Positions 3,027 to 43,900 of a stretch of DNA of 64,000 nt are shown here, in pieces (the stretch's first letter is position 1; every line of letters begins with the position of its first letter). The DNA lies in contig CAOJRU010000001.1 of the NCBI GenBank assembly GCA_948442365.1, positions 45,244 to 109,243 on the forward strand. The letters are read 5' to 3'. The translations under genes were made by a program, and so were the position numbers. This stretch comes from an uncultured Clostridium sp. (GTDB lineage Bacteria; Bacillota; Clostridia; TANB77; CAG-508). A model generated the notes under the pieces. It saw only the letters and a program-made list of their open reading frames with translations, had not been told where the DNA came from and searched no databases.

Positions 3027-3109
3027 AAAATGAAGCTCCTTTCATCTTTATTGTTTAGGAAAAATGGACGAAAAAGAGAATTTTTCCATTCTTGCTTATA
3101 ACTTTTCCT

Positions 3110-3138
3110 ATTATATAATAAAAATGCTAGTGTTTCAA
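3110..3138 (-). promoter_or_regulatory. sigma-A type promoter for leuS
   Basis: On the minus strand: TTGAAA, 17 nt, TATAAT. It sits about 80 nt upstream of the leuS ATG. Confidence 0.5.
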
Positions 3139-3155
3139 GGTTTTTCATTTAACTT

Positions 3156-3402
3156 CCGTTTTTTTCTAAAGGTTAGCCCCCACCTGTTGGCATAAAATAT
3201 GGTTATTTTTCATAAATTCTTCGGCTTCCTTCATAATTCAAGGAATTCTAATATAATTTTACGGGTCCTTTCCAAGACAAGCTTGAACACTTACCGTAAA
3301 ATGATTAAGAATTCCTAATCTTATTCCGGTCACATTCAGCCTTTATTCAAAATAACCATATTTTATGCCAACAGGTGGGGGCTAACCTTTAGAAAAAAAC
3401 GG
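3156..3402. repeat. 247-bp nested palindromic intergenic element (family E)
   Basis: Perfect 54-bp inverted arms, 3156-3209 and 3349-3402. An inner imperfect inverted repeat surrounds an asymmetric core at 3263-3295. The right half recurs at 47942-48045. Confidence 0.85.
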
Positions 3403-3466: not shown

Positions 3467-4231
3467 ATGATAGATATACAAAAAGCAAAACAAGAGATAA
3501 AAAAATATGTCAGTAAATATGACATAGAAAATGAAAGAATTAGAGTAAAGATAGGTCATATTGAAAGAACAGCAAGCATAGCCAAACAAATAGCAAAAAG
3601 CATGAAGCTAGAGAAAGAAGACATTGAACTAGCAGAGTTAATTGGGTTATTACATGATATAGGAAGATTTGAACAAGTAAAACAATACAATACTTTTATA
3701 GACAAAGACAGTATAAATCATGGAGAATTAGGAGTACACATCTTATTTGAAGAAGGATTCATTTCTAATTTTATAGAAGATAGACAATATGATGAAACAA
3801 TAAGAAGAGCTATTTTAAATCATAATAGAAATAGAAAAGACGTAGAAACTACCAATAATAAAGAGTTACTACATTCTAAAATCATTAGAGATGCGGATAA
3901 AACAGATATCATATACATGTTAACATTTGAAGATAAAGAAACCGCATGGGGAAATGCTAATATGGAGCAACAAAAAATGACAGATGAGATTTATCGTGAA
4001 TTTATCGAAGAAAAATCAATTAATTACCATAAAAGAAAAACAGCAGTCGATATATTAGTAAGCCATTTTGCTTATGTATTTGATTTTAATGATAAACATG
4101 CTTTACAAATCATAAAAGAAAAAGGATATTATGATAAGATTTATAACAGATTTCATTTTGAGGACAAACAGACAGAAGAAAGAATGGAACAGATTTATCA
4201 AATTGTAAAAAAGTATTTAGAGAGGCAATAA
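3467..4231 (+). CDS. HD-domain phosphohydrolase
   Basis: HD motif LLHDIGRFEQ, plus further His/Asp-containing segments downstream (HNRNR, RDADKTD). ATG at 3467 is preferred because of the upstream ggaggg SD; the track ORF starts at 3419. Confidence 0.7.
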   Translation: MIDIQKAKQEIKKYVSKYDIENERIRVKIGHIERTASIAKQIAKSMKLEKEDIELAELIGLLHDIGRFEQVKQYNTFIDKDSINHGELGVHILFEEGFISNFIEDRQYDETIRRAILNHNRNRKDVETTNNKELLHSKIIRDADKTDIIYMLTFEDKETAWGNANMEQQKMTDEIYREFIEEKSINYHKRKTAVDILVSHFAYVFDFNDKHALQIIKEKGYYDKIYNRFHFEDKQTEERMEQIYQIVKKYLERQ

Positions 4232-7970: not shown

Positions 7971-8097
7971 AGTTGCAAAAGGTTGCCAATGGTTCTGGGT
8001 TTAAATGGCAACTTTAATCACGGTTATTATTTAGTAAAATAAAATTAGCCTAAAAGTTGCCATTTAAACCCAGAATCATTGGTAACCTTTTACAACT
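7971..8097. repeat. 127-bp palindromic intergenic element (family B)
   Basis: 45-bp arms at 7971-8015 and 8053-8097 with 3 mismatches. Shares the core ccaatggttcYgggtttaaatg with 61813-61936. Confidence 0.85.
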
Positions 8098-11100: not shown

Positions 11101-11598
11101 AAAGAAATGAAAGGAATCAAGATAGAACCAGAACTAGACCTTCAAATTGACTTAAACGTAACCAGTTATATACCAGATGAATACATACCAGATGCTAACC
11201 AAAAAATAGAAATATACCAAAACATTGCACTATGTCATAATGAGCAACACATCCAAAACGTAATAGACGAAATCATAGATCGTTTTGGAAACATGCCAGA
11301 AGAACTAGAAAATCTAATTGCCATAGCCAGAATAAAATACCTAGCCAAAGCTCTAAATATTAGTAAAATAGCAAGCAAAAAAACAGCAGTGGTATTCACT
11401 TTTGAGCCAAACAAATTTGAACTAGACTTAAATAAATTAGTCAAAAAATATGGCAATAAAATAAAATTCTCAGCTGGCATAAAATCTGCTGTAACACTAC
11501 AAATAGGAAGCAATAACGAAAGGCAAATTTTAAATGACGTAACAGAATTTTTGGTAGTGTGTTCTGGGATGGTGTGTTCTGGGACAGGCACAGTTTAA
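8109..11598 (+). CDS. mfd: transcription-repair coupling factor Mfd, needing a +1 shift at the CGG at 11028
   Basis: Track ORFs 8109-11069 and 11107-11598 join seamlessly as EIRGAGSLL|GEIQSGHLEQVGYDTYCNLL when C11028 is skipped. Helicase motifs GDVGYGKTE and DEEHRFG are present. The total of about 1162 aa is a typical Mfd length. Confidence 0.9.
11028..11031 (+). other. frame-break site CGGA in mfd: in-frame CGG, with +1 GGA encoding the conserved Gly
   Basis: Context tta ctt C gga gaa. (11028-8109) is divisible by 3, and (11107-11029) is divisible by 3. Confidence 0.85.
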
Positions 11599-21991: not shown

Positions 21992-22043
21992 AAAAATGAA
22001 ACGGGACCAATAGCCTTGAGGCCATAGGTCTCGTTTCATTTTT
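21992..22043. terminator. bidirectional rho-independent terminator
   Basis: 17-bp stem aaaaatgaaacgggacc with ggtctcgtttcattttt. An A-run and a T-run flank it. Lies between convergent genes. Confidence 0.8.
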
Positions 22044-22061
22044 AACTTAGATAAATGCTAC

Positions 22062-34544: not shown

Positions 34545-35469
34545 ATGATACAAGATGTATATATAATTGATGATGATGATGCATCAATTGTAATATTTAG
34601 AGAACTATTTAAAAATGATCCCGAATATAAATTTACCAGTGTAAAAACAGAACAAATAGACATTGCCTTAAAAAACATACCATCTTTGATTGTCATAAAC
34701 GAAGATGCAATAGACCGAAATGTGGTCGATTTATGTAGAAAAATTAGAAAAGATGAAGATAATACCATAACACCAGTTATTGTGGTATCTTCTAGGGGAG
34801 AAAAAGAACATAGATTAAGTATATTACAAGAATCGATTGAATATTTCATCAAAAAACCAGTAGATGAACAATACTTGTATCATACGGTAAAGAACTTAAA
34901 TAGACTTCTTTCTACGAATAGAAGAATCAGTCCTTTAACAGGTTTACCAGGAAATGTACAAATACATGCAGAATTGAAGAAAAGAATTTTAAAAAAAGAA
35001 GCCTTTTGTGTACTGTACTTAGATTTAGATAATTTTAAAGCCTATAATGACGTATATGGATTTTTAAAAGGAGATGAAATCATAGAATTCACAGCACAAA
35101 CCATTATAGATTGTATTCATGAAAGTGGACTAAAAGATACTTTTATCGGACATATTGGGCGGAGATGACTTTGTAGCATTAATAGCAGGAAATGTTTGTG
35201 AAAAGTTATGTCAAAGTATATTAGCTCATTTTGATCATAACGTAAAAAAATATTTTACAGACAATGATTTAGAAAAAGGATATATAGAAGTAGCCAATCG
35301 AAAGGGAATTATTGAGCAATTCCCATTAACTTCTTTATCAATAGGAGTAGTAGTAGCAGATGAGGGAAGATTCAATAACATCCTAGAAATTGGAGAAGTA
35401 GGAGCACAAGTAAAACATGCTGCCAAATCCGTTATGGGAAGTAGCTATGCCGTTGACAGAAGAAAATAG
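34545..35469 (+). CDS. receiver-like domain plus GGDEF-domain diguanylate cyclase (motif variant GGDDF), needing a +1 shift at the CGG at 35160
   Basis: ISPLTGLPGN, YLDLDNFKAYND, and GHIG|GDDFVALI once C35160 is skipped. Track ORFs 34545-35168 and 35155-35469. Confidence 0.8.
35160..35163 (+). other. frame-break site CGGA inside the GGDEF motif
   Basis: Context att ggg C gga gat. The CGG is in frame with 34545. The exact junction is less tightly pinned than at the other sites: the downstream frame is open from 35134. Confidence 0.7.
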
Positions 35470-35482
35470 AGTTTCTGGTATG

Positions 35483-35811
35483 GTTCTTTTGGGACATTGC
35501 CTCAGGTTGCCACTGTGCCACTGGGGACGGACCTTTTTGGCAAATTCTTTATACTAATAATAAAATAGAAAAAAATAAAAAAGTTTTTTGTTCAAGCTAA
35601 TTATCATAGAAGTTCTAAATTCATAATATGGCACCCTTCCATGCACGACGCATGAACGCTTTCCATATTATGAATAAAGAACTTCTAATTCAATTACTTT
35701 CAAGCAAAACTTTTTTATTTTTTTCTATTTTTATTCTATTAATTTCAGGATTGCCAAAAAGGTCCGTCCCCAGTGGCACAGTGGCAACCTGAGGCAATGT
35801 CCCAAAAGAAC
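35483..35811. repeat. 329-bp nested palindrome: family C outer arms enclosing a family D element
   Basis: Perfect 61-bp inverted arms at 35483-35543 and 35751-35811. The inner palindrome (about 35569-35725) is homologous to 17650-17805. Asymmetric core at 35630-35664. Confidence 0.9.
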
Positions 35812-35884
35812 TGTCTCCAATCGGAATAAAATGCAGAAGCTCTTAATATAAATAGTAATAAATATTTATATTAGGAGTTTTTAT

Positions 35885-36642
35885 ATGATAGTGATTAACA
35901 AAAAAAGAATTTCAGTTATATTATCTTGTGTATTAGTAGCTGTTTTTGTATTTTATTTTCAAATTGCTAATAACAAAAATGAATTTAGATCCCAAAACAA
36001 TCTGGATCAAGAGCAAAATACAGTAGCGACAACCGCAACACCAGTATCAGGAAAAACCATTGTAGTAGATGCGGGACATGGTGTGCCAGATGAACGGTGC
36101 ACAAAGTAGTAATCGGTACAACAGAAGCAGAAACTAATTTGAAAATTGCATTAAAATTACAGAATTTATTAGAAACAAGTGGATGTAACGTTATTTTGAC
36201 ACGTTCCGATGAAAATGCCATTTATGATTTGGATAGTAAAACATTAAAACAGAAAAAAATTTCGGATATTCGTAATCGAGTAAAAATAGGAAATGAATCA
36301 AGTGCAGATATATTTGTTAGTATTCATCTCAATAAAATTCCTGAGCAGCAATATTGGGGATGGCAATGTTTTTATAAAAATGGAGATGAAAAAAGTACGA
36401 ATCTAGCAAAACAGATTCAGTCAAATTTGAATGATTCGATTCAAAAAGAAAATAAAAGGGTCGCAATGAAGTTAGATACTGTCTATATTATGAAACATGT
36501 AGAAATTCCAATTTCAATTGTAGAATGTGGTTTTTTATCTAATCCAGAAGAGGAGAAGCAATTGCTAGAAGAAGAGTATCAAAATCGATTGGCTTGGGGC
36601 ATTTATAATGGAATTACAGATTATTTTTATGATAAAAATTAG
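35885..36642 (+). CDS. cwlD: germination-specific N-acetylmuramoyl-L-alanine amidase CwlD-like, needing two +1 shifts (CGG at 36095 and 36114)
   Basis: VVDAGHGVPDE|GAQSSN|GTTEAETNLKIA is collinear with B. subtilis CwlD DPGHGGPDGGAVG..EKDVTLEVA. Also ISIHLN and VECGFLSNPEE. Confidence 0.8.
36095..36098 (+). other. frame-break site CGGT in cwlD (first)
   Basis: Context gat gaa C ggt gca. The CGG is in frame with 35885. Confidence 0.8.
36114..36117 (+). other. frame-break site CGGT in cwlD (second)
   Basis: Context agt aat C ggt aca, six codons after the first site. The downstream GGT is in frame with track ORF 36097-36642. Confidence 0.8.
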
Positions 36643-37918: not shown

Positions 37919-37980
37919 AAAATTTCCACTCTTTGCAAACAATATGTTTAAAACATATGGAAGCAAGGAGTGGAAATTTT
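37919..37980 (+). promoter_or_regulatory. leader hairpin overlapping the SD of the giant glucan-synthase-like gene
   Basis: Perfect 13-bp stem aaaatttccactc (37919-37931) with gagtggaaatttt (37968-37980). The 3' arm includes part of SD aaggag (37965-37970). There is an inner hairpin atatgttt/aaacatat. The TTG start follows at 37981. Confidence 0.4.
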
Positions 37981-40900
37981 TTGAAGATCAATAAAGTATT
38001 AAAAATAAATGGTACCTTACTAGACAAAAACCAGCTAGAAAGCCATTTACAAAAAATAGCCTCTAATCATAATTTAACCAACCAATCACAAAAAGAAACC
38101 TATCCAGTACCACAAATGTTAGAAAATTTCAAAGTCATAGAACAAGTATATCAACTATTAAACGAACATCTAAAATTAGGAATTAGTATTCATCCAGCCG
38201 GAGAATGGTTACTAGATAACTTGTATATCATAGAAGAAACCGTAAAACAAATTGAAAAAGAGCTAACCCTAAAAAAATATACCAATTTTGTAGGAGTCAG
38301 TAATGGAGCTTACAAAGGATTTGCGAGAATTTATGTATTAGCTTCTGAAATAGTAGCTTACACAGATAATAAAATAGAAAGAAAAGACTTGGAAGACTAT
38401 TTGGTAAGTTATCAAACTAAAAAAACATTAAGTATGGAAGAAATATGGAATATTGGTATATTTCTTCAAATTGCTATGATTGAAAATATAAGAGAAATAA
38501 GCGAAAAAATATATAGTTGTCAAATACAAAAATATAAAGCAGAAAATATTGTAGAAAGATTAGTGGAAAATAAGGGAAAGGCAGAGCAGAATTTTAAAAC
38601 GAATTCCATCAAAAAACTAGAAAAAGATGTATTTAAGGATATGAAATATCCTTTTATTGAATATATGTCTTATATCTTAAAACGCTATGGGAAAAAGGGA
38701 TATAGCTATTTAAAAGCCTTAGAAGAAGCAGTAGAAATGAGTGGTACAACAGTATCTGAAGTTATCAAAAAAGAACATTTTGACATTGCTGTAAGAAAAG
38801 TATCTATGGGCAATAGTATAACCAGTATCAAAAAAATTCAAAGAATTAACTTTCTAGAAATATTCGAAAAAATTAATGGAGTAGAAGAGATTTTAAGACA
38901 AGATCCAAGTCAAGTTTATGAAAAAATGGACGATAAAACCAAAGAATATTATCGAACACGAATCAAGGAAATTTCGAAAAAAACAAAAATATCAGAAATG
39001 TATATTGCTAGAAAAGCACTAGAATTAGCACAAAATGAAGAACTATCAACAAAGCAATCTCATATTGGTTATTACTTAATCGATCAAGGTATCAATACCT
39101 TATATGATGTATTACAATATAAAACCAGTAGACAAATGAGTACAAAAGACAAAACAAGGGCTTATTTGTTAGGGGTAGGAATGCTTAGTATTTTATTATC
39201 AGTAGGTATGAGTAGTCTTATCAAATTAAATGTAGTGACATTTCTTTTATTCTTAATACCAGCGTCAGAAGTAGCAGTACAAATTATTCAATATGTATTA
39301 AGTAAAGTAGTAAAACCAAAGCCAATACCAAAATTAGATTATACCAATGCAATTGATGAACAACATAAAACAATGGTAGTTATTCCAACTATTTTAAAAT
39401 CCAAAGAAAAAGTACAAGAATTAATGAGAAAATTAGAAGTGTTTTACTTAGCGAATCAATCTCAAAATATCTATTTTACGTTATTAGGAGATTGTTCTGA
39501 AAGTAGTAAAGAAGAGGAAGAATTTGACCAAGAAGTAATGCACGAGGGGAAATTTTTAGTAGATAAATTAAATGAAAAATATAAGCAAGAAGAAGGGCAA
39601 ATGCCAATTTTTAGTTTTATTTATCGAAAACGTCAATGGAATGAGAAAGAAGAATCCTTCTTAGGTTGGGAACGAAAAAGAGGAATGTTGACCCAATTTA
39701 ACCAATATCTATTAGGAAAAATAAAAAATCCATTCCGTGTTAATACTTTAGAAAATCAAGAAAAAGAAAAGATTAAATATATTATTACTTTAGATGCTGA
39801 TACCGATTTAGTTCTAAATACAGCTTTTGAATTAGTAGGCGAGATGGCTCATATTCTAAATCAGCCAATCATAGACAGTCAAAAAAATATCGTAGTAGAT
39901 GGGTATGGAATATTACAACCACGAGTAGGAATTAATTTAGACATTAGTTATCAAACATTATTTACCAAGATATTTGCAGGAGCAGGCGGAACGGACTCCT
40001 ATAGTAATGCCATATCAGATACCTATCAAGACAATTTTCAAGAAGGAATTTTTACAGGAAAAGGAATTTATGACTTAGAAGTATATGATAAGGTAGTAGA
40101 AAATCAAATTCCAGAAAATACGGTATTAAGTCATGATCTTTTGGAAGGTTGCTATTTACGTTGTGGGTTGGCGTCTGACATTTTATTAATGGATGGTTAC
40201 CCAACCAAATATAATAGTTTTATGAATCGACTTTCAAGATGGATTCGAGGAGATTGGCAGATTACCAAATGGATTGGTAGCAAAAGCCCTTTAAATTTAT
40301 TATCAAAATACAAAATAGGAGATAATTTAAGAAGAAGCTTAATAGAAATAACCATTATGGTAGCAATTGTGTATTGTAATGTAATTGGTATAATCGACAG
40401 AAAAACATTTTCAATAACAGTTGCCACATTAATAGGAATATCCATATTTCCTTATTTACTAGAATTATTAAATGCGTGTATTTTTAGAAAAGAGGGGGAA
40501 GAAAAGCAAAAAACATTTGCTCCTAAAATATCAGGGATAAGAGGAACCTTTTATAGGCTCATTATTACCATTGGATGTTTACCATATAAAGCTTATGTTT
40601 CAGCAAAAGCAATTCTAAAAACATTATATCGAGTGTGTATTACCAAAAAACATTTATTAGAATGGACTACTTCAGAAGAAGCGGAAAAACAGGCGAAGTC
40701 TAATTTAGCTTCTTATTACAACCAGATGGCATTTAATGTATTAGTTGGCGTCATCAGTATTGGTTTAGGGCTATTTCGATTGAATTTATTAGCGGTTGTA
40801 TTGGGGATATGGTGGGCTATTACGCCTATAATTATGTGGTATGTTAGTAGAGAAATAGAAAAAGTACAACCAGTAGAACAATTAAACGAAGAAGAAAAGA

Positions 40901-43900
40901 AATATGTTTTAGAAATTGGAAAAAGAACTTGGGACTTTTTTGAAACCTATCTAACAAAGGAAAATAACTATCTAATTCCTGATAATTACCAAGAAGAAAG
41001 AAAAGAAAAAGTAGTTCCTCGAACATCTTCAACAAATATAGGGTTATCTTTATTAGCGGTTATCTCTGCCTATGATTTGAAATATATTGACTTAGAAAAA
41101 ACAATGGATTTATTAAGTAAGACAATTGATACCATCGAAAGTTTGGCTAAATGGAATGGACATCTCTATAACTGGTATAACATCAAAACCAAAGAACCAT
41201 TAAATCCTAAGTATGTATCAACTGTCGATAGTGGAAATTTAGCTGGGTATTTATATGTAACCAAAGCCTTTTTAGAAGAGATTGCCAACAGTTTTGAATT
41301 TGTTTGGCAACCAAAGAAGAAGCAGGAGAAGAAACAAGATAATTTAATTCATTTAAAGGCAGAGGAAAGTGGCCAAACAAACCTGAAATCGTTGGCAACT
41401 TCCTTGAAAGTTAAAATCCAGCAAATGATTGAAGATATGGACTTTAGTGTGTTGTATAATCACGAACAACAAATTTTTTCAATTGGATTTAATATCGAAG
41501 AAAATAAGTTAACCGATTCTTATTATGATTTACTGGCCTCTGAAGCAAGACAAGCCAGTCTAGTAGCTATTGCTAAAAAAGACGTGTCTAGTAGACATTG
41601 GAATTATTTAAGTAGAACTTTAACAACGTTAGGAAAATACAAAGGCTTGATTTCGTGGTCTGGAACAGCATTTGAATATTTAATGCCAAATATCAATATC
41701 CCAAAATATGAAGGAAGTTTACTAGATGAATCTTGCAAATTTTTAGTAAAGACACAAATGGAATATAGCAAAAATTTGAATATACCTTGGGGAATTTCAG
41801 AAGCAGCTTTTAATTTGAGAGATTTGCAATCCAATTATCAATATAAAGCTTTTGGTATACCATGGCTGGGACTAAAAAGAGGTTTGGCAGATGAAATGGT
41901 GGTTTCTAGTTATGCAGGGATATTAGCCATAAGTGAAGTACCAAAAGAAGAGGTAAAGAACTTAAAATGGCTTGAAAAAGAAGGCATGTATGATAAATAC
42001 GGATTTTATGAATCGATTGACTATACACCAGAAAGAGTGGAAAAAGGGAAAAATTCAGCTGTTGTAAAAACCTATATGGCACATCATCAAGGGTTAATTT
42101 TATTGAGTATTAATAACTTATTTCATAATGATATTTTACAAAAAAGGTTTATGAAAAATCCGGAAATTGATGCCGTTAGCATCTTATTACAAGAGACTAT
42201 GCCAGAGAAGGCCATCATAACGAAGGAAAAAAAGGAGAAGGTTGAAAAGTTGAAATATAAAGATTATGAAAATTATGTGCAAACAACGTATAAGAAAATT
42301 GACGAAAGATTAATAACTGGTAACTTTATTTCAAATGAAGATTATGTAGTGGCTATGAATCAAAAAGGACAAGGGGTTAGTAAGTATAAAGACGTTTATA
42401 TCAATCGATTCAAAGTAACTAGCGATTATCCACAAGGAATTTTCTTTGCTTTTAAGAATATCAAAAATAAAAATATTTGGAGTTCAAATTATGCTTATAA
42501 TGAAAATAAGGAAAGTCAATATCAAATTAGTTTTATGCCAGATAAGCATGAACAAGAAATAGTGAATGGAAATATTAAAACAAAAATAGAAACAACCGTA
42601 AGTTCAAACCAACCAGTAGAATTGAGAAGAGTTACACTAGAAAATCAAGGAAATGAAGAAGAAATTTTGGAAGTAACTTGCTATTTTGAACCAGTATTAT
42701 CAAGAAAAGAGCAAGATTATTCTCACCCAGCTTTTAATAACTTATTTTTAATTCCTAAGTTAGAAGAAGAAACCAATAGTATTATCGTACAAAGAAAAAA
42801 TAGAGAAGCCAATACACCTAAGTTTTATTTAGGAGCCAACTTATCCACAAATAGTGAAACCATAGGGGATTTTGAATATGAAATCGATCAAGAAAAATTT
42901 ATAGGAAGAGGAAATTTGGGGATTCCTAATCGAATCAAAAATTCTATTCCATTGTCAAAGAAAATGGGATTAGTAACAGAGCCAATTGTAGCATTGAAAA
43001 GAACCATTAAGGTAAAACCACAAGAAGAAGCACTTATAGATTTTATTTTAGCCGTCAATGAAAACGAGGAAGTAGTAATTGAAAATATTAAAAAATATCA
43101 ATCAACAGGAAATGTAACCAAAGAATTTGAGTTGTCCAAAGCAAGAGTAGAAGCAGAAAGTAGGTATTTGAGCAGAAAAGGTAGTGATATGGCTGTTTAT
43201 CAAAAAATGCTATCTTATATTATTTTTGATAATCCAATTAAATCACAATTAGTAGAAAAGAAAAAGAAACATTCAAATTACCATCAAAGTGAATTGTGGA
43301 AATATGGAATATCAGGAGATTTACCAATTATTTTACTAAAAATAAAGAATGTGAATGATGGCTATATCGTAAAAGAAGCTTTAAAAGCTCATGAATTCTT
43401 CCGCATGAAAAAAGTAGAAACGGAAATGGTCATATTAGATGAAGAAAAACATAGCTATGAAAACTATGTAAAAGAAGAAATTGAAGGCAGTATTTTAAAT
43501 CATCATATGGCATATTTAAAAAATCAAAGAGGTGGAATTTTCACATTAAGCAAAGGGGAAATTGACAAAAAAGATATAGAATTATTAGAGTTTTTAGCAA
43601 GTATTATCATAGATAGTGACAAAGGTGGATTAAAGAATAATATTAAAGAGTTAGAAGAAAATTATTTGGAAAAGCAAGAAGTAATTGGAGAAGAAGTACA
43701 AAAGCCAGTATTTGAGGAAGAAGAGAAAGAAGATATCGACTTACTAAGCAATCATGAAGAGTTAAAATATTATAATGAATATGGTGGATTTTCAGCAGAT
43801 GGAAAAGAATATTTAATGCGAATCAATCAAGAAAATAGATTGCCAACCGTATGGAGCCATATTATGGCTAATGAAAAGTTTGGAACGATTGTGACAGAAA

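What the first reader, a model, noticed from the sequence alone, without database searches (positions are those of the whole stretch)
35483..35811. 329-bp nested palindrome with perfect 61-bp outer arms downstream of the GGDEF gene
The outer arms gttcttttgggacattgcctcaggttgccactgtgccactggggacggacctttttggcaa (35483-35543) and their exact reverse complement (35751-35811) enclose a second palindrome of about 155 bp. That inner palindrome is itself a near-copy of 17650-17805. The outer-arm modules recur singly at 49086-49125 and 63434-63464. The architecture suggests either one palindromic element inserted into the centre of another, or a long modular RNA stem. Perfect 61-bp arms imply recent formation or strong selection.
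Basis: seen in the sequence. Interest (0 to 1): 0.65.

Follow-up and report, generated by a model that had tools for sequence, protein, structure and literature searches.

The report
REP-flanked structured hairpin mobile element
The 329-bp nested palindrome is one copy of a widespread, apparently undescribed repeat of gut Clostridia, in which two inverted REP-like hairpin modules (the kind that flank a domesticated tyrosine transposase in related genomes) enclose a long hairpin with a conserved asymmetric core.

Summary
Arms 35483-35543 and 35751-35811 are 61/61 complementary and enclose an imperfect palindrome at 35559-35735.

The arms are built from a 29-nt REP-like module, TTGCCA-NN-GGGACGG(A/T)CC-TTTTTGGCAA. 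This module is abundant in about 20 uncultured gut Clostridia genomes as singles, 33-nt tandems and head-to-head doublets.

In relatives the same modules, inverted, flank a single-copy Y1/HUH RAYT-like transposase fixed between dnaB and tilS. The window has no RAYT.

The centre is not filler. It belongs to a hairpin family with an asymmetric core, GGCACCCTTCCA-[small hairpin]-GAAC-N-CTTTCC. Covariation is strong: 18 of 24 pairs show compensatory changes in 44 diverse copies. The core was found at 114 metagenome loci and has no Rfam match.

About half of the copies carry lineage-specific GGGAC-type inverted arms, against 0.06% of random sites. The composite is therefore a conserved architecture, not a one-off nested insertion.

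My best reading is a REPIN-like non-autonomous element moved in trans by a RAYT. Mobilisation is inferred, not shown.

Other assemblies of this locus carry the centre flipped. This could be real inversion between the perfect arms or an assembler choice.

I rate it a new variant of a known kind, of moderate to high interest.

The parts
35483..35543 (+). Left arm. The outer 24 nt (35483-35506) look like a degenerate module remnant. The canonical REP-like module is 35507-35543, TTGCCACTG-TGCCACTGGGGACGGACCTTTTTGGCAA, G-rich strand on top.
   Evidence: Perfect inverted repeat. nhmmer module hit at 35516-35543, 38 bits. Folds as a small hairpin, -6.8 kcal/mol as DNA. Depth in metagenome contigs is 20-50 times the flanks.
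35751..35811 (-). Right arm, the exact reverse complement of the left arm. The canonical REP-like module is 35751-35787. The pair is head-to-head (> <), like the common 4-nt-spaced doublets in relatives.
   Evidence: 49 head-to-head pairs in related loci, against 9 tail-to-tail.
35544..35558 (.). Left spacer between the arm and the inner hairpin. It is homologous to the spacers of the composites in L077 and L042.
   Evidence: Alignment A1.
35559..35735 (+). Inner imperfect palindrome, a member of a conserved structured-hairpin family. The covariance-model match is 35582-35711.
   Evidence: inverted repeats I1, I6. CM R1 scores 127 bits on the plus strand against 54 on the minus strand. Covariation. 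Other copies have different flanks at about 35559 and about 35736.
35630..35664 (+). Asymmetric conserved core: GGCACCCTTCCA, then a small covarying hairpin (CATGC-ACGAC-GCATG), then GAAC-G-CTTTCC.
   Evidence: Regex and nhmmer hits. 114 metagenome loci carry the same core.
35736..35750 (.). Right spacer between the inner hairpin and the right arm.
17641..17801 (+). Copy of the inner hairpin without REP arms. Its left end overlaps the stop codon of ORF 16639-17649.
   Evidence: 89.6% identity. CM match 17663-17791, 99 bits. ORF list.
3156..3402 (+). Diverged ('type B') member of the inner-hairpin family, with 61-nt arms (97% complementary) of a different, possibly REP-derived type. It lies between divergent genes.
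   Evidence: I4. CM match 3215-3342, 105 bits. Alignment A2. ORFs.
49086..49122 (-). Single REP-like module (GGGACGGTCC variant) just upstream of the ribosome-binding site of the next gene.
63436..63464 (+). Single REP-like module, TTGCCAAGAGGGACGGACCTTTTTGGCAA, just after a stop codon.
   Evidence: -6.9 kcal/mol hairpin.
61803..61946 (.). REPIN-like doublet of the sister module variant, TTACCAATGGTTCCGGGTTTAAATGACAA. Arms are 67 nt and 91% complementary, with a 10-nt centre.
   Evidence: The same variant flanks the RAYT gene in L112.
7971..8097 (.). REPIN-like doublet of the GGTTC variant. Arms are 45 nt and 93% complementary, with a 37-nt spacer.
34545..35469 (+). Upstream gene: a response-regulator/GGDEF protein, frameshifted inside the GGDEF motif. 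It ends 13 nt before the element (stop at 35469, arm starts at 35483).
35885..36642 (+). Downstream gene: a CwlD-like Amidase_3 protein, also frameshifted. It starts 73 nt after the element.

Best explanation
The 329-bp structure is a REPIN-like, non-autonomous repeat with three layers.

(1) The arms. Each arm ends in a 29-37-nt REP-like module. This is a weak hairpin (stem TTGCCAA/TTGGCAA) that displays GGGACGG(A/T)CC. The two modules are head-to-head.

(2) The centre. Between the arms lies a 177-nt hairpin belonging to a widespread family with a conserved asymmetric internal loop.

(3) The whole. The complete element can fold into one hairpin of about -127 kcal/mol as ssDNA.

In related genomes the same modules, in inverted orientation, bracket a single-copy Y1/HUH transposase of the RAYT type. 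That gene sits at a fixed chromosomal position, gdpP-rplI-dnaB-RAYT-tilS-ftsH.

Inferred mechanism: the RAYT recognises the GGGACRG-loop hairpins on single-stranded DNA. It then cuts and rejoins at the outer feet of the two modules. Whatever lies between two inverted modules, here the structured hairpin, is copied to new intergenic sites without target duplication.

At rest the element sits at the 3' end of a gene. It may be transcribed and may act as a stable terminator or insulator hairpin.

The perfect arms are explained by recent copying, by recombination or gene conversion between the arms, or by both. Recombination would also flip the centre, as the disagreement between assemblies suggests.

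Shown: the repeat family, its arrangements, the RAYT association and synteny in relatives, the hairpin covariation, and the linkage between core and arms.

Inferred: catalysis by the RAYT, the ssDNA intermediate, current activity in this genome, any RNA function, and real inversion.
For: Almost all come from about 20 uncultured gut Clostridia genomes.

A profile search gives 254 module hits. 246 do not lie deep inside a long ORF. There are 49 head-to-head pairs (4-nt gap commonest), 55 direct pairs (period 33) and 9 tail-to-tail pairs.

400 of 537 GGGAC[AG]G sites lie in the loop of a hairpin of at least 5 bp. The stems are many different, complementary sequences. Only 9.6% of random positions do the same.

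RAYT: the 246-aa ORF in L076 matches Pfam Y1_Tnp above its cutoff. Its best NCBIfam match is REP_Tyr_transpos, at 65 bits against a cutoff of 80. Its only PDB relative is E. coli TnpA-REP, 4ER8, with the HUH motif, Tyr115 and Asn119 aligned.

Inverted modules flank the RAYT gene in L076, L073, L030, L112, L114 and L116. Their variants differ from locus to locus.

The synteny dnaB-RAYT-tilS is conserved across orthologues that are 47-68% identical to the L076 RAYT.

The composite behaves as a unit. The window, L077 and L042 composites are homologous through the arms, spacers and centre, yet lie at different loci. In other lineages the ends of the composite coincide with the outer foot of the REP module, and no target-site duplication is seen.

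Core-arm linkage: 45 of 88 cores have symmetric GGGAC arms, against 1 of 1665 random sites.

Hairpin: 96.4% of cells are paired, against at most 53% when the partners are slid. 18 of 24 pairs show compensatory changes.

Copy number: arm depth is 20-50 times the flank depth and the centre about 3 times.

Folding: -127.4 kcal/mol, z-score -23.
Against: No RAYT gene lies in the 64-kb window. I could not establish whether the window's own genome has one.

One relative, L001, has dnaB next to tilS with no RAYT, yet still carries modules.

In L112, the RAYT-bearing locus whose modules most resemble the window's second REP type, the RAYT is flanked by the GGTTCC variant, not the GGGACGG variant.

No empty-site allele or insertion polymorphism was seen in 8 DNA runs, so there is no evidence of recent movement at this locus.

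The proteobacterial REP hallmark, a 5' GTAG, is absent.

The NCBIfam RAYT score is below its curated cutoff.

Half of the inner-hairpin copies lack recognisable REP arms. The hairpin may therefore have its own means of spread or its own function.

Orientation relative to the majority gene strand shows no significant bias: 27 against 16, p = 0.13. A strong lagging-strand bias would have supported ssDNA transposition.
Confidence: 0.68

Rival explanations
1. Nested insertion. An independent hairpin MITE happened to land in the spacer of an ordinary REP doublet, and the two parts have no functional link.
For: Each part occurs alone: a hairpin without arms at 17641-17801 and in L066, and 4-nt-spaced doublets without a hairpin. 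Copies of the hairpin have their own boundaries near 35559 and 35736, with varied flanks.
Against: Symmetric GGGAC arms flank 51% of cores, against 0.06% of random sites. The arms belong to different lineage-specific variants, so the pairing recurs or is retained far beyond chance. The spacers are homologous among three composites at different loci, so the composite spreads as one unit.
Confidence: 0.15
2. The centre is a structured non-coding RNA gene or RNA element, for example a hairpin with two CU-rich loops or an extra-long bidirectional terminator. On this view the REP modules are incidental neighbours or act as its terminators.
For: The core is conserved and asymmetric, and the stems covary strongly. 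The CM scores far higher on one strand. A 212-nt contig from mouse-gut metatranscriptome X27 covers 35558-35769 with one mismatch, while the flanking genes have zero coverage. A/T runs flank the hairpin, and a TTGGCA-18-TAAAAT promoter-like site lies at the junction of arm and centre. Copies sit at gene 3' ends and between convergent genes, and none of 67 is inside an ORF.
Against: G-U pairs are almost absent (5 of 1051 cells) and no more frequent than A-C. That fits DNA-level complementarity better than RNA-level selection. There is no Rfam family. Orientation relative to co-directional neighbours is random, 8 against 7. The element is multi-copy with varied flanks, which is typical of mobile DNA. 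The RNA evidence is a single low-depth contig with no strand information, and the copy at 17.6 kb is not covered.
Confidence: 0.25
3. Invertible switch. The centre flips between the perfect inverted arms and changes the expression of the neighbouring amidase or GGDEF genes (phase variation).
For: The window and two independent assemblies (L233/L241 and L242) carry the centre in opposite orientations. Both orientations are seen at 6 of 11 loci that were sampled more than once in metagenomes. The core is asymmetric, so orientation could matter.
Against: Short-read assemblers can pick an orientation arbitrarily when perfect inverted repeats reach the k-mer length, and most contigs break in the arms. 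No raw reads were available to test this. No outward-facing promoter was found, and no invertase gene lies nearby. Both neighbouring genes are frameshifted, so there is little to regulate.
Confidence: 0.1
4. A local duplication-inversion unique to this locus, or an assembly artefact.
For: The arms are perfect, and palindromes are a known assembly hazard.
Against: The element and its flanks are reproduced in independent assemblies and in Logan contigs from several studies. Both the arm family and the centre family are dispersed within and across genomes.
Confidence: 0.02

Closest known systems
REP / BIME / REPIN elements with RAYT (TnpA-REP) transposases of Proteobacteria (E. coli, Pseudomonas; Nunvar 2010, Bertels & Rainey 2011 PMC3116915, Ton-Hoang 2012, Bertels 2017 PMC5581495)
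   Same: Both have short imperfect-palindrome units at high copy number, mostly extragenic. Units occur singly, in tandem clusters and as inverted doublets that fold into one hairpin. A single-copy, vertically inherited Y1/HUH transposase is bracketed by inverted units. No target-site duplication is seen.
   Different: The host is Clostridia, where RAYT group 1 is reported with only a weak repeat association (PMC5581495). The conserved determinant is GGGAC(G/A)G in the hairpin loop, not a 5' GTAG at the foot. The RAYT sits between dnaB and tilS, and its downstream REP is embedded in frame in tilS. Many doublets carry a 130-370-nt structured hairpin with a conserved asymmetric core instead of a short spacer.
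Rickettsia palindromic elements (RPE; known from the literature, not tested here)
   Same: A palindromic repeat is occasionally found in frame inside protein-coding genes. Here the cases are tilS in five relatives and the giant GH94 protein in L031, where the module reads as NCQKGPS(L/P)(V/L)A.
   Different: In-frame copies are rare here, about 3 of 254. The unit is 29-33 nt rather than about 100-150 nt, and an associated transposase is identifiable.
Structured bacterial MITE-like repeats (ERIC/IRU, Correia/CREE, RUP, BOX; from general knowledge)
   Same: For the inner hairpin: 130-300 bp, imperfectly palindromic, intergenic, often at gene 3' ends, multi-copy, and forming stable hairpins when transcribed.
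   Different: No sequence similarity and no TA or other target duplication were seen. The centre is a conserved non-palindromic internal loop, and the element is frequently bracketed by REP modules.
IS200/IS605-derived PATEs and invertons found by PhaseFinder-type screens (from general knowledge)
   Same: PATEs: non-autonomous elements bounded by the hairpins that a Y1 transposase recognises. Invertons: a segment between inverted repeats seen in both orientations.
   Different: In PATEs the terminal hairpins lie in direct orientation on one strand, whereas here the modules are inverted. For the inverton comparison, no site-specific invertase, no promoter cargo and no read-level proof of flipping were found.

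Membership tests
REP/REPIN-RAYT system | Short (20-40 nt) imperfect palindromic unit that can form a hairpin | tested here: met
   The unit is 29 nt with the stem TTGCCAA/TTGGCAA and folds at -6.9 kcal/mol as DNA. 74% of GGGAC[AG]G sites lie in hairpin loops, against 9.6% of random positions. Stems covary across lineages.
REP/REPIN-RAYT system | High copy number, predominantly extragenic | tested here: met
246 of 254 hits do not lie deep inside a long ORF. Arm depth is 20-50 times the flanks. The window itself holds only 4 GGGACGG-type and 5 GGTTC-type modules in 64 kb.
REP/REPIN-RAYT system | Inverted doublets (REPINs) and clusters (BIME-like) | tested here: met
   49 head-to-head, 55 tandem and 9 tail-to-tail neighbouring pairs. 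Window doublets lie at 35483-35811, 7971-8097 and 61803-61946.
REP/REPIN-RAYT system | RAYT gene (Y1 HUH transposase) bracketed by inverted REPs; single copy; vertically inherited | tested here: met
   Met in relatives: six loci from different species, with conserved dnaB-RAYT-tilS synteny.
REP/REPIN-RAYT system | RAYT catalytic signature (HUH, catalytic Tyr, Asn/Gln helper) and membership of the RAYT clade rather than IS200 | tested here: inconclusive
   The HUH motif, the Tyr115 equivalent and the Asn119 equivalent align to 4ER8, the only PDB hit, at E = 0.01. Pfam Y1_Tnp scores above its cutoff. NCBIfam REP_Tyr_transpos is the best hit but scores 65 bits against a cutoff of 80. No phylogeny was made.
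REP/REPIN-RAYT system | Conserved 5' GTAG tetranucleotide at the hairpin foot (enterobacterial and pseudomonad REPs) | tested here: not met
   The modules have no GTAG. The invariant motif is GGGAC(G/A)G inside the loop. GTAG is specific to particular RAYT groups, so this argues for a different subtype rather than against the mechanism.
REP/REPIN-RAYT system | RAYT binds and cleaves the REP hairpin; REPINs are mobile | not testable with these tools
   Only indirect evidence: homologous composites at different loci in two species. No polymorphic insertion was seen in 8 runs.
Classical TIR/DDE MITE | Terminal inverted repeats matching an autonomous DDE IS, plus target-site duplication | tested here: not met
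   No target-site duplication at the window, L077, L042 or the metagenome composites. The arms are the family that flanks a Y1 transposase, not a DDE transposase. No match in phage, plasmid or viral collections.
Curated RNA family (Rfam 15) | Match to a covariance model at the gathering score | tested here: not met
   No hit in the whole window. Only sub-threshold matches to generic long-hairpin miRNA models in 35400-35900.
Inverton (phase-variable invertible segment) | Both orientations present within one population, supported by reads spanning the inverted repeats | tested here: inconclusive
   Opposite orientations appear in different assemblies. Only k=31 contigs were available, no raw reads.

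The most novel reading that the evidence does not exclude
The conserved-core hairpin is a new functional nucleic-acid element of gut Clostridia: a structured RNA, or an ssDNA signal that works together with the RAYT system. It is carried as cargo between GGGACRG-loop REP modules, and the perfect arms let the asymmetric core flip in vivo. On this reading these composites are a previously unrecognised class of REPIN-borne invertible elements. It would also be the first well-populated REP/REPIN-RAYT system described in Firmicutes, including a REP maintained in frame inside the essential gene tilS.
Probability: 0.25. Interest if true: 0.85.

Novelty: new variant of a known kind. Interest (0 to 1): 0.62.

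Why it matters
REP/REPIN-RAYT systems have been studied almost entirely in Proteobacteria. In Clostridia, group-1 RAYTs were reported with only a weak repeat association (PMC5581495).

This locus leads to a populous clostridial system with several unusual features:
- The recognition motif, GGGACRG, sits in a hairpin loop.
- The RAYT is locked between dnaB and tilS.
- A REP is tolerated in frame inside tilS.
- Many REPIN-like doublets carry a 130-370-nt hairpin whose asymmetric core is conserved across many gut lineages and is absent from Rfam.

This gives three things. It offers a tractable test of what RAYTs recognise outside Proteobacteria. It supplies a candidate new structured element. It also has a practical consequence: these palindromes break short-read assemblies of gut MAGs, and the orientation of their centre is not reliable in such assemblies.

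Tried and rejected
- **Rfam.** The gathering-score scan of the whole window and the E-value scan of the locus gave nothing meaningful.
- **Viral contigs, phages, plasmids.** No copies of the module, the centre or the whole element. The one viral hit to the core pattern, L232, looks like chance: it is GC-rich with no hairpin.
- **First metagenome pattern.** A 32-base stretch of the inner arm found nothing. The core pattern then found 114 loci.
- **Empty-site search.** L031 is syntenic only downstream of the element. Logan contigs from 8 DNA runs show no joint that skips the element with long sides. The 207-nt 'skips' have only 20-30-nt sides and are other doublets.
- **Target-site duplications.** None seen at any composite.
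- **Small ORFs in the centre.** The 54-aa ORF on the plus strand and the tiny ORFs on the minus strand are not conserved between copies.
- **Replication-strand bias of the core.** 27 against 16, not significant.
- **Read-level test of inversion.** No raw-read runs were offered.
- **Literature.** Searches for the motifs, for RAYT with Firmicutes or tilS, and for clostridial MITEs returned nothing relevant.
Full report

Yes. Positions 35483-35543 and 35751-35811 are 61 nt long and 100% complementary, with 207 nt between them. A 42-nt core of the arm occurs only at these two places in the window, and never in 100 dinucleotide shuffles.

The arms enclose an imperfect palindrome at 35559-35735. Its arms are 86 nt and 72% complementary, with a perfect 26-nt sub-pair at 35562-35587 and 35706-35731.

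Positions 35560-35723 are 89.6% identical to 17641-17801. Parts of the arm recur at 49085-49122 and 63436-63464.

The whole 329 nt folds as single-stranded DNA at -127.4 kcal/mol, with a z-score of -23.

The window is 29.9% G+C, so the G+C-rich arms stand out. The element lies 13 nt after the stop of a response-regulator/GGDEF gene and 73 nt before a CwlD-like amidase gene.

**2. What are the arms?**

The inner half of each arm is a 29-37-nt module, TTGCCA-NN-GGGACGG(A/T)CC-TTTTTGGCAA.

I scanned one genome per species for GGGACGGNCCTTTTTGGCAA. Almost all come from about 20 uncultured 'Clostridium sp.' or 'Clostridia bacterium' gut MAGs from mouse, human, rabbit and other hosts. Viral contigs gave none.

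The genome closest to the window is CANPNZ01, at about 90-93% identity (L060). The runs that hold the window are mouse-gut metagenomes.

A profile of the module finds 254 copies in those blocks:
- 246 do not lie deep inside a long ORF.
- Neighbouring copies are head-to-head (49 pairs, 4-nt gap commonest), direct (55 pairs, period 33) or tail-to-tail (9 pairs).

This is the single, cluster and inverted-doublet organisation of REP, BIME and REPIN sequences.

The conserved part is the loop, not the stem. Of 537 GGGAC[AG]G sites, 400 lie inside a hairpin of at least 5 bp, against 9.6% of random positions. The stems differ between lineages but stay complementary: TTGCCA/TGGCAA, AGACA/TGTCT, AGGACA/TGTCCT, GGGTGTTTTT/AAAAACACCC, ATGTCCA/TGGACAT and others.

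In metagenome contigs the arms are 20-50 times deeper than the flanks.

**3. Is a transposase associated with the arms?**

Yes, in relatives. In L076 a 246-aa ORF lies between modules in inverted orientation.
- It matches Pfam Y1_Tnp above its cutoff.
- Its best NCBIfam model is 'REP-associated tyrosine transposase', at 65 bits, below the 80-bit cutoff.
- Its only relative in the PDB is E. coli TnpA-REP (4ER8). The HUH motif, the catalytic Tyr115 and Asn119 all align.

Homologues number 611 at E below 1e-10. Many sit on contigs of about 1.0-1.2 kb, as expected if assemblies break at flanking repeats.

Three further orthologues, 47-68% identical to the L076 protein, were fetched with their context. 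All sit in the same place: gdpP-rplI-dnaB-RAYT-tilS-ftsH.

In each case one or more modules lie between dnaB and the RAYT. The inverted partner lies inside the tilS coding sequence, in frame, between the SGGPDS and VAHVNH motifs.

The module variant differs between orthologous loci:
- GGGACGGACC in L076 and L116.
- GGGACGGAGG in L114.
- TGGTTCCGGGTTAAAATGACAA in L112.
- A TGGACA-stem variant in L030.

So the RAYT and its REP appear to change together.

One relative, L001, has dnaB directly next to tilS with no RAYT, but keeps the in-frame module.

The window contains no RAYT. I could not determine whether the rest of its genome does.

The window does contain the GGTTCC-type modules as well, at 7971-8097 and 61803-61946. 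These are near-identical to those flanking the RAYT in L112.

**4. What is the centre?**

It is not a simple spacer. Comparison of the copies shows a conserved, non-palindromic core, GGCACCCTTCCA-[4-5-bp hairpin]-GAAC-N-CTTTCC. It sits on top of stems that differ between copies but stay complementary.

The copies compared were window 35.6 kb, 17.6 kb and 3.2 kb, plus L077, L042, L109, L060, L079, L066 and L018.

On nine copies, 12 of 25 predicted pairs show compensatory double changes.

A metagenome scan with the core pattern found 114 loci from human gut, rumen and other sources, with several per long contig.

On 44 diverse copies:
- 18 of 24 pairs show compensatory changes.
- 96.4% of cells are paired, against at most 53% when the partners are slid.
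- The covariation score is 0.382 against 0.087 in shuffles (0 of 500 shuffles reach it).

G-U pairs are nearly absent, 5 of 1051 cells. This fits DNA-level complementarity, or hairpin-templated correction, better than RNA-level selection.

A covariance model finds three copies in the window, all on the plus strand:
- 35582-35711, 127 bits.
- 3215-3342, 105 bits.
- 17663-17791, 99 bits.

The minus-strand scores are much lower, at 54, 21 and 40 bits, so the asymmetry is real.

Rfam has no such family. Literature searches for the motifs found nothing.

None of 67 copies with enough flank lies inside an ORF. Most lie between convergent genes or after a gene end.

**5. Are the arms and the centre linked?**

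Yes. Of 88 cores with at least 330 nt of flank on both sides, 45 have symmetric GGGAC arms within 330 nt, G-rich on the left and C-rich on the right. Only 1 of 1665 random positions in the same loci does.

The arms are the REP variant of the lineage concerned. Examples are TTAGACATTGGGACGGAGTTTTTGTCT in an abundant human-gut organism, AGGACATTTGGGGACGGGTCAC...TGTCCT in another, and GGGACGTTCC plus GGGGACAGTCC in L109.

The ends of the composites coincide with the outer foot of the REP hairpin, with no target duplication.

Within the window's lineage, the composites in the window, L077 and L042 are homologous through arms, spacers and centre, yet lie at unrelated loci.

The composite is therefore a unit that spreads, and a recurrent architecture, not a single accidental nesting. 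Equally, about half of the cores lack recognisable arms, including 17641-17801. The hairpin can therefore persist, and perhaps move, without them.

**6. Mechanism**

The best-supported reading is a REPIN-like non-autonomous element. A RAYT-type Y1 transposase recognises the GGGACRG-loop hairpins on single-stranded DNA and mobilises whatever lies between two inverted modules.

Shown: the repeat family and its arrangements, the bracketing of the RAYT by the same modules, the RAYT's conserved position, the structure of the hairpin, and the linkage of core and arms.

Inferred from the known biochemistry of TnpA-REP and IS200/IS605 TnpA: recognition, cleavage and an ssDNA intermediate.

No recent movement is visible at this locus. 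In 8 DNA runs from several studies the flanking contigs run into the arms, and none skips the element.

There is no significant bias of the core's orientation relative to the dominant gene strand: 27 against 16, p = 0.13.

**7. The perfect arms and the orientation of the centre**

Independent assemblies reproduce the locus, including the frameshifts in both neighbouring genes.

However, a 35-kb contig (L233/L241) and a contig from another sample (L242) carry the 207-bp centre in the opposite orientation to the window. Most other contigs end inside an arm.

In the metagenome set, 6 of 11 loci sampled more than once show both orientations.

This could be real inversion by recombination between the perfect arms, which would also keep them identical. 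It could equally be an arbitrary choice by short-read assemblers. Only k=31 contigs were available, so I could not decide.

One strain (run X7) has a G>A change at 35509 in the left arm with no matching change in the right arm. Perfection is therefore not enforced everywhere.

**8. Transcription**

One mouse-gut metatranscriptome (X27) has a 212-nt contig covering 35558-35769 with one mismatch, at depth 3.9. The neighbouring genes have no coverage. The copy at 17.6 kb is not covered.

This is suggestive only. The depth is low, there is no strand information, and DNA carry-over is possible.

A promoter-like TTGGCA-18-TAAAAT site spans the junction of arm and centre. The simple scan found no canonical terminator.

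**9. Comparison with known systems and novelty**

The arms and the RAYT fit the REP/REPIN-RAYT kind on every structural criterion I could test. Two exceptions remain: the proteobacterial GTAG motif is absent, and the NCBIfam score is sub-threshold.

Group-1 RAYTs are known in Clostridia but were reported with only a weak repeat association (PMC5581495; PMC6006769).

The following were not found in the literature I could search:
- The loop-displayed GGGACRG motif.
- The dnaB-RAYT-tilS position with an in-frame REP in tilS.
- The structured, conserved-core cargo.
- The possible flipping.

I rate the finding a new variant of a known kind.

Noticed in passing
window 11560-11700 and 12600-12710: Two tandem arrays (4 and 3 units) of a 35-nt repeat, TTTTGGGACAGGCACA..CC(C/A)TTTTGGTATG. 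They lie in the same direction on both sides of a SpoU/TrmH-type methyltransferase gene (11798-12610). This looks like a third GGGAC-containing repeat type. The first array overlaps the end of ORF 11107-11598.
   Followed up: partly
window 3156-3402; half copy at 47941-48055: A 247-bp palindrome with 61-nt arms (97% complementary). Its centre is a diverged member of the same conserved-core hairpin family (CCTTTCCA...CTTACC). Its arms, ...TGCCAACAGGTGGGGGCTAACCTTTAG..., are in the opposite (< >) arrangement. Homologous copies occur in L060, L080, L005 and L018.
   Followed up: partly
window 61803-61946 and 7971-8097: Two further REPIN-like doublets built from the sister module TT(G/A)CCAATGGTTC(C/T)GGGTTTAAATG(A/G)CAA. 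This is the variant that flanks the RAYT gene in the mouse MAG locus L112.
   Followed up: yes
window 41282-41310 (inside ORF 37933-46161); L031 686-715: The giant GH94/glycoamylase-like ORF contains TTGCCAACAGTTTTGAATTTGTTTGGCAA, which has the module's stems around a different loop. At the same position the orthologue in L031 carries a full module in frame, read as NCQKGPSLLAI, in place of a linker that is about 35 residues longer in the window.
   Followed up: partly
L076 3843-3908; L114 about 3901; L116 about 3070-3160; L112 about 3960-3990; L001 2338-2357: In every relative examined, the essential gene tilS carries one to three REP modules in frame between its SGGPDS and VAHVNH motifs. These serve as the downstream inverted partner of the RAYT. 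The module is kept even where the RAYT is missing (L001).
   Followed up: partly
window about 35158 and about 36097: Both genes next to the element are frameshifted. The GGDEF gene has an extra C inside its GG(D/E)EF motif (...ATT GGG C GGA GAT GAC...). The CwlD-like amidase is frameshifted after GHGVPDE. Both frameshifts appear in independent assemblies (L233, L241-L250), so they are not errors of one assembly.
   Followed up: partly
L233 1404-1732, L241, L242, compared with window 35483-35811; metagenome loci L118-L231: The centre between the perfect arms is in the opposite orientation in other assemblies of the same locus. Both orientations are also seen at 6 of 11 other loci that were sampled more than once.
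   Followed up: partly
window 46189-46259 and 21990-22045: Two short palindromes just after long ORFs: GTTTGTCCTTTAAATGGAAAGTTGCTAA / TTGGCAACTTTCCATTTAATCCCCAAAC, and a GGGAC-containing hairpin, TTAAAAATGAAACGGGACCAATAGCCT / AGGCCATAGGTCTCGTTTCATTTTTAA. They may be terminators or further module relatives.
   Followed up: no
one search hit list: Many RAYT homologues sit on contigs of about 1.0-1.2 kb, roughly the gene plus its flanks. This suggests that the flanking repeats routinely break short-read assemblies of these gut genomes.
   Followed up: no
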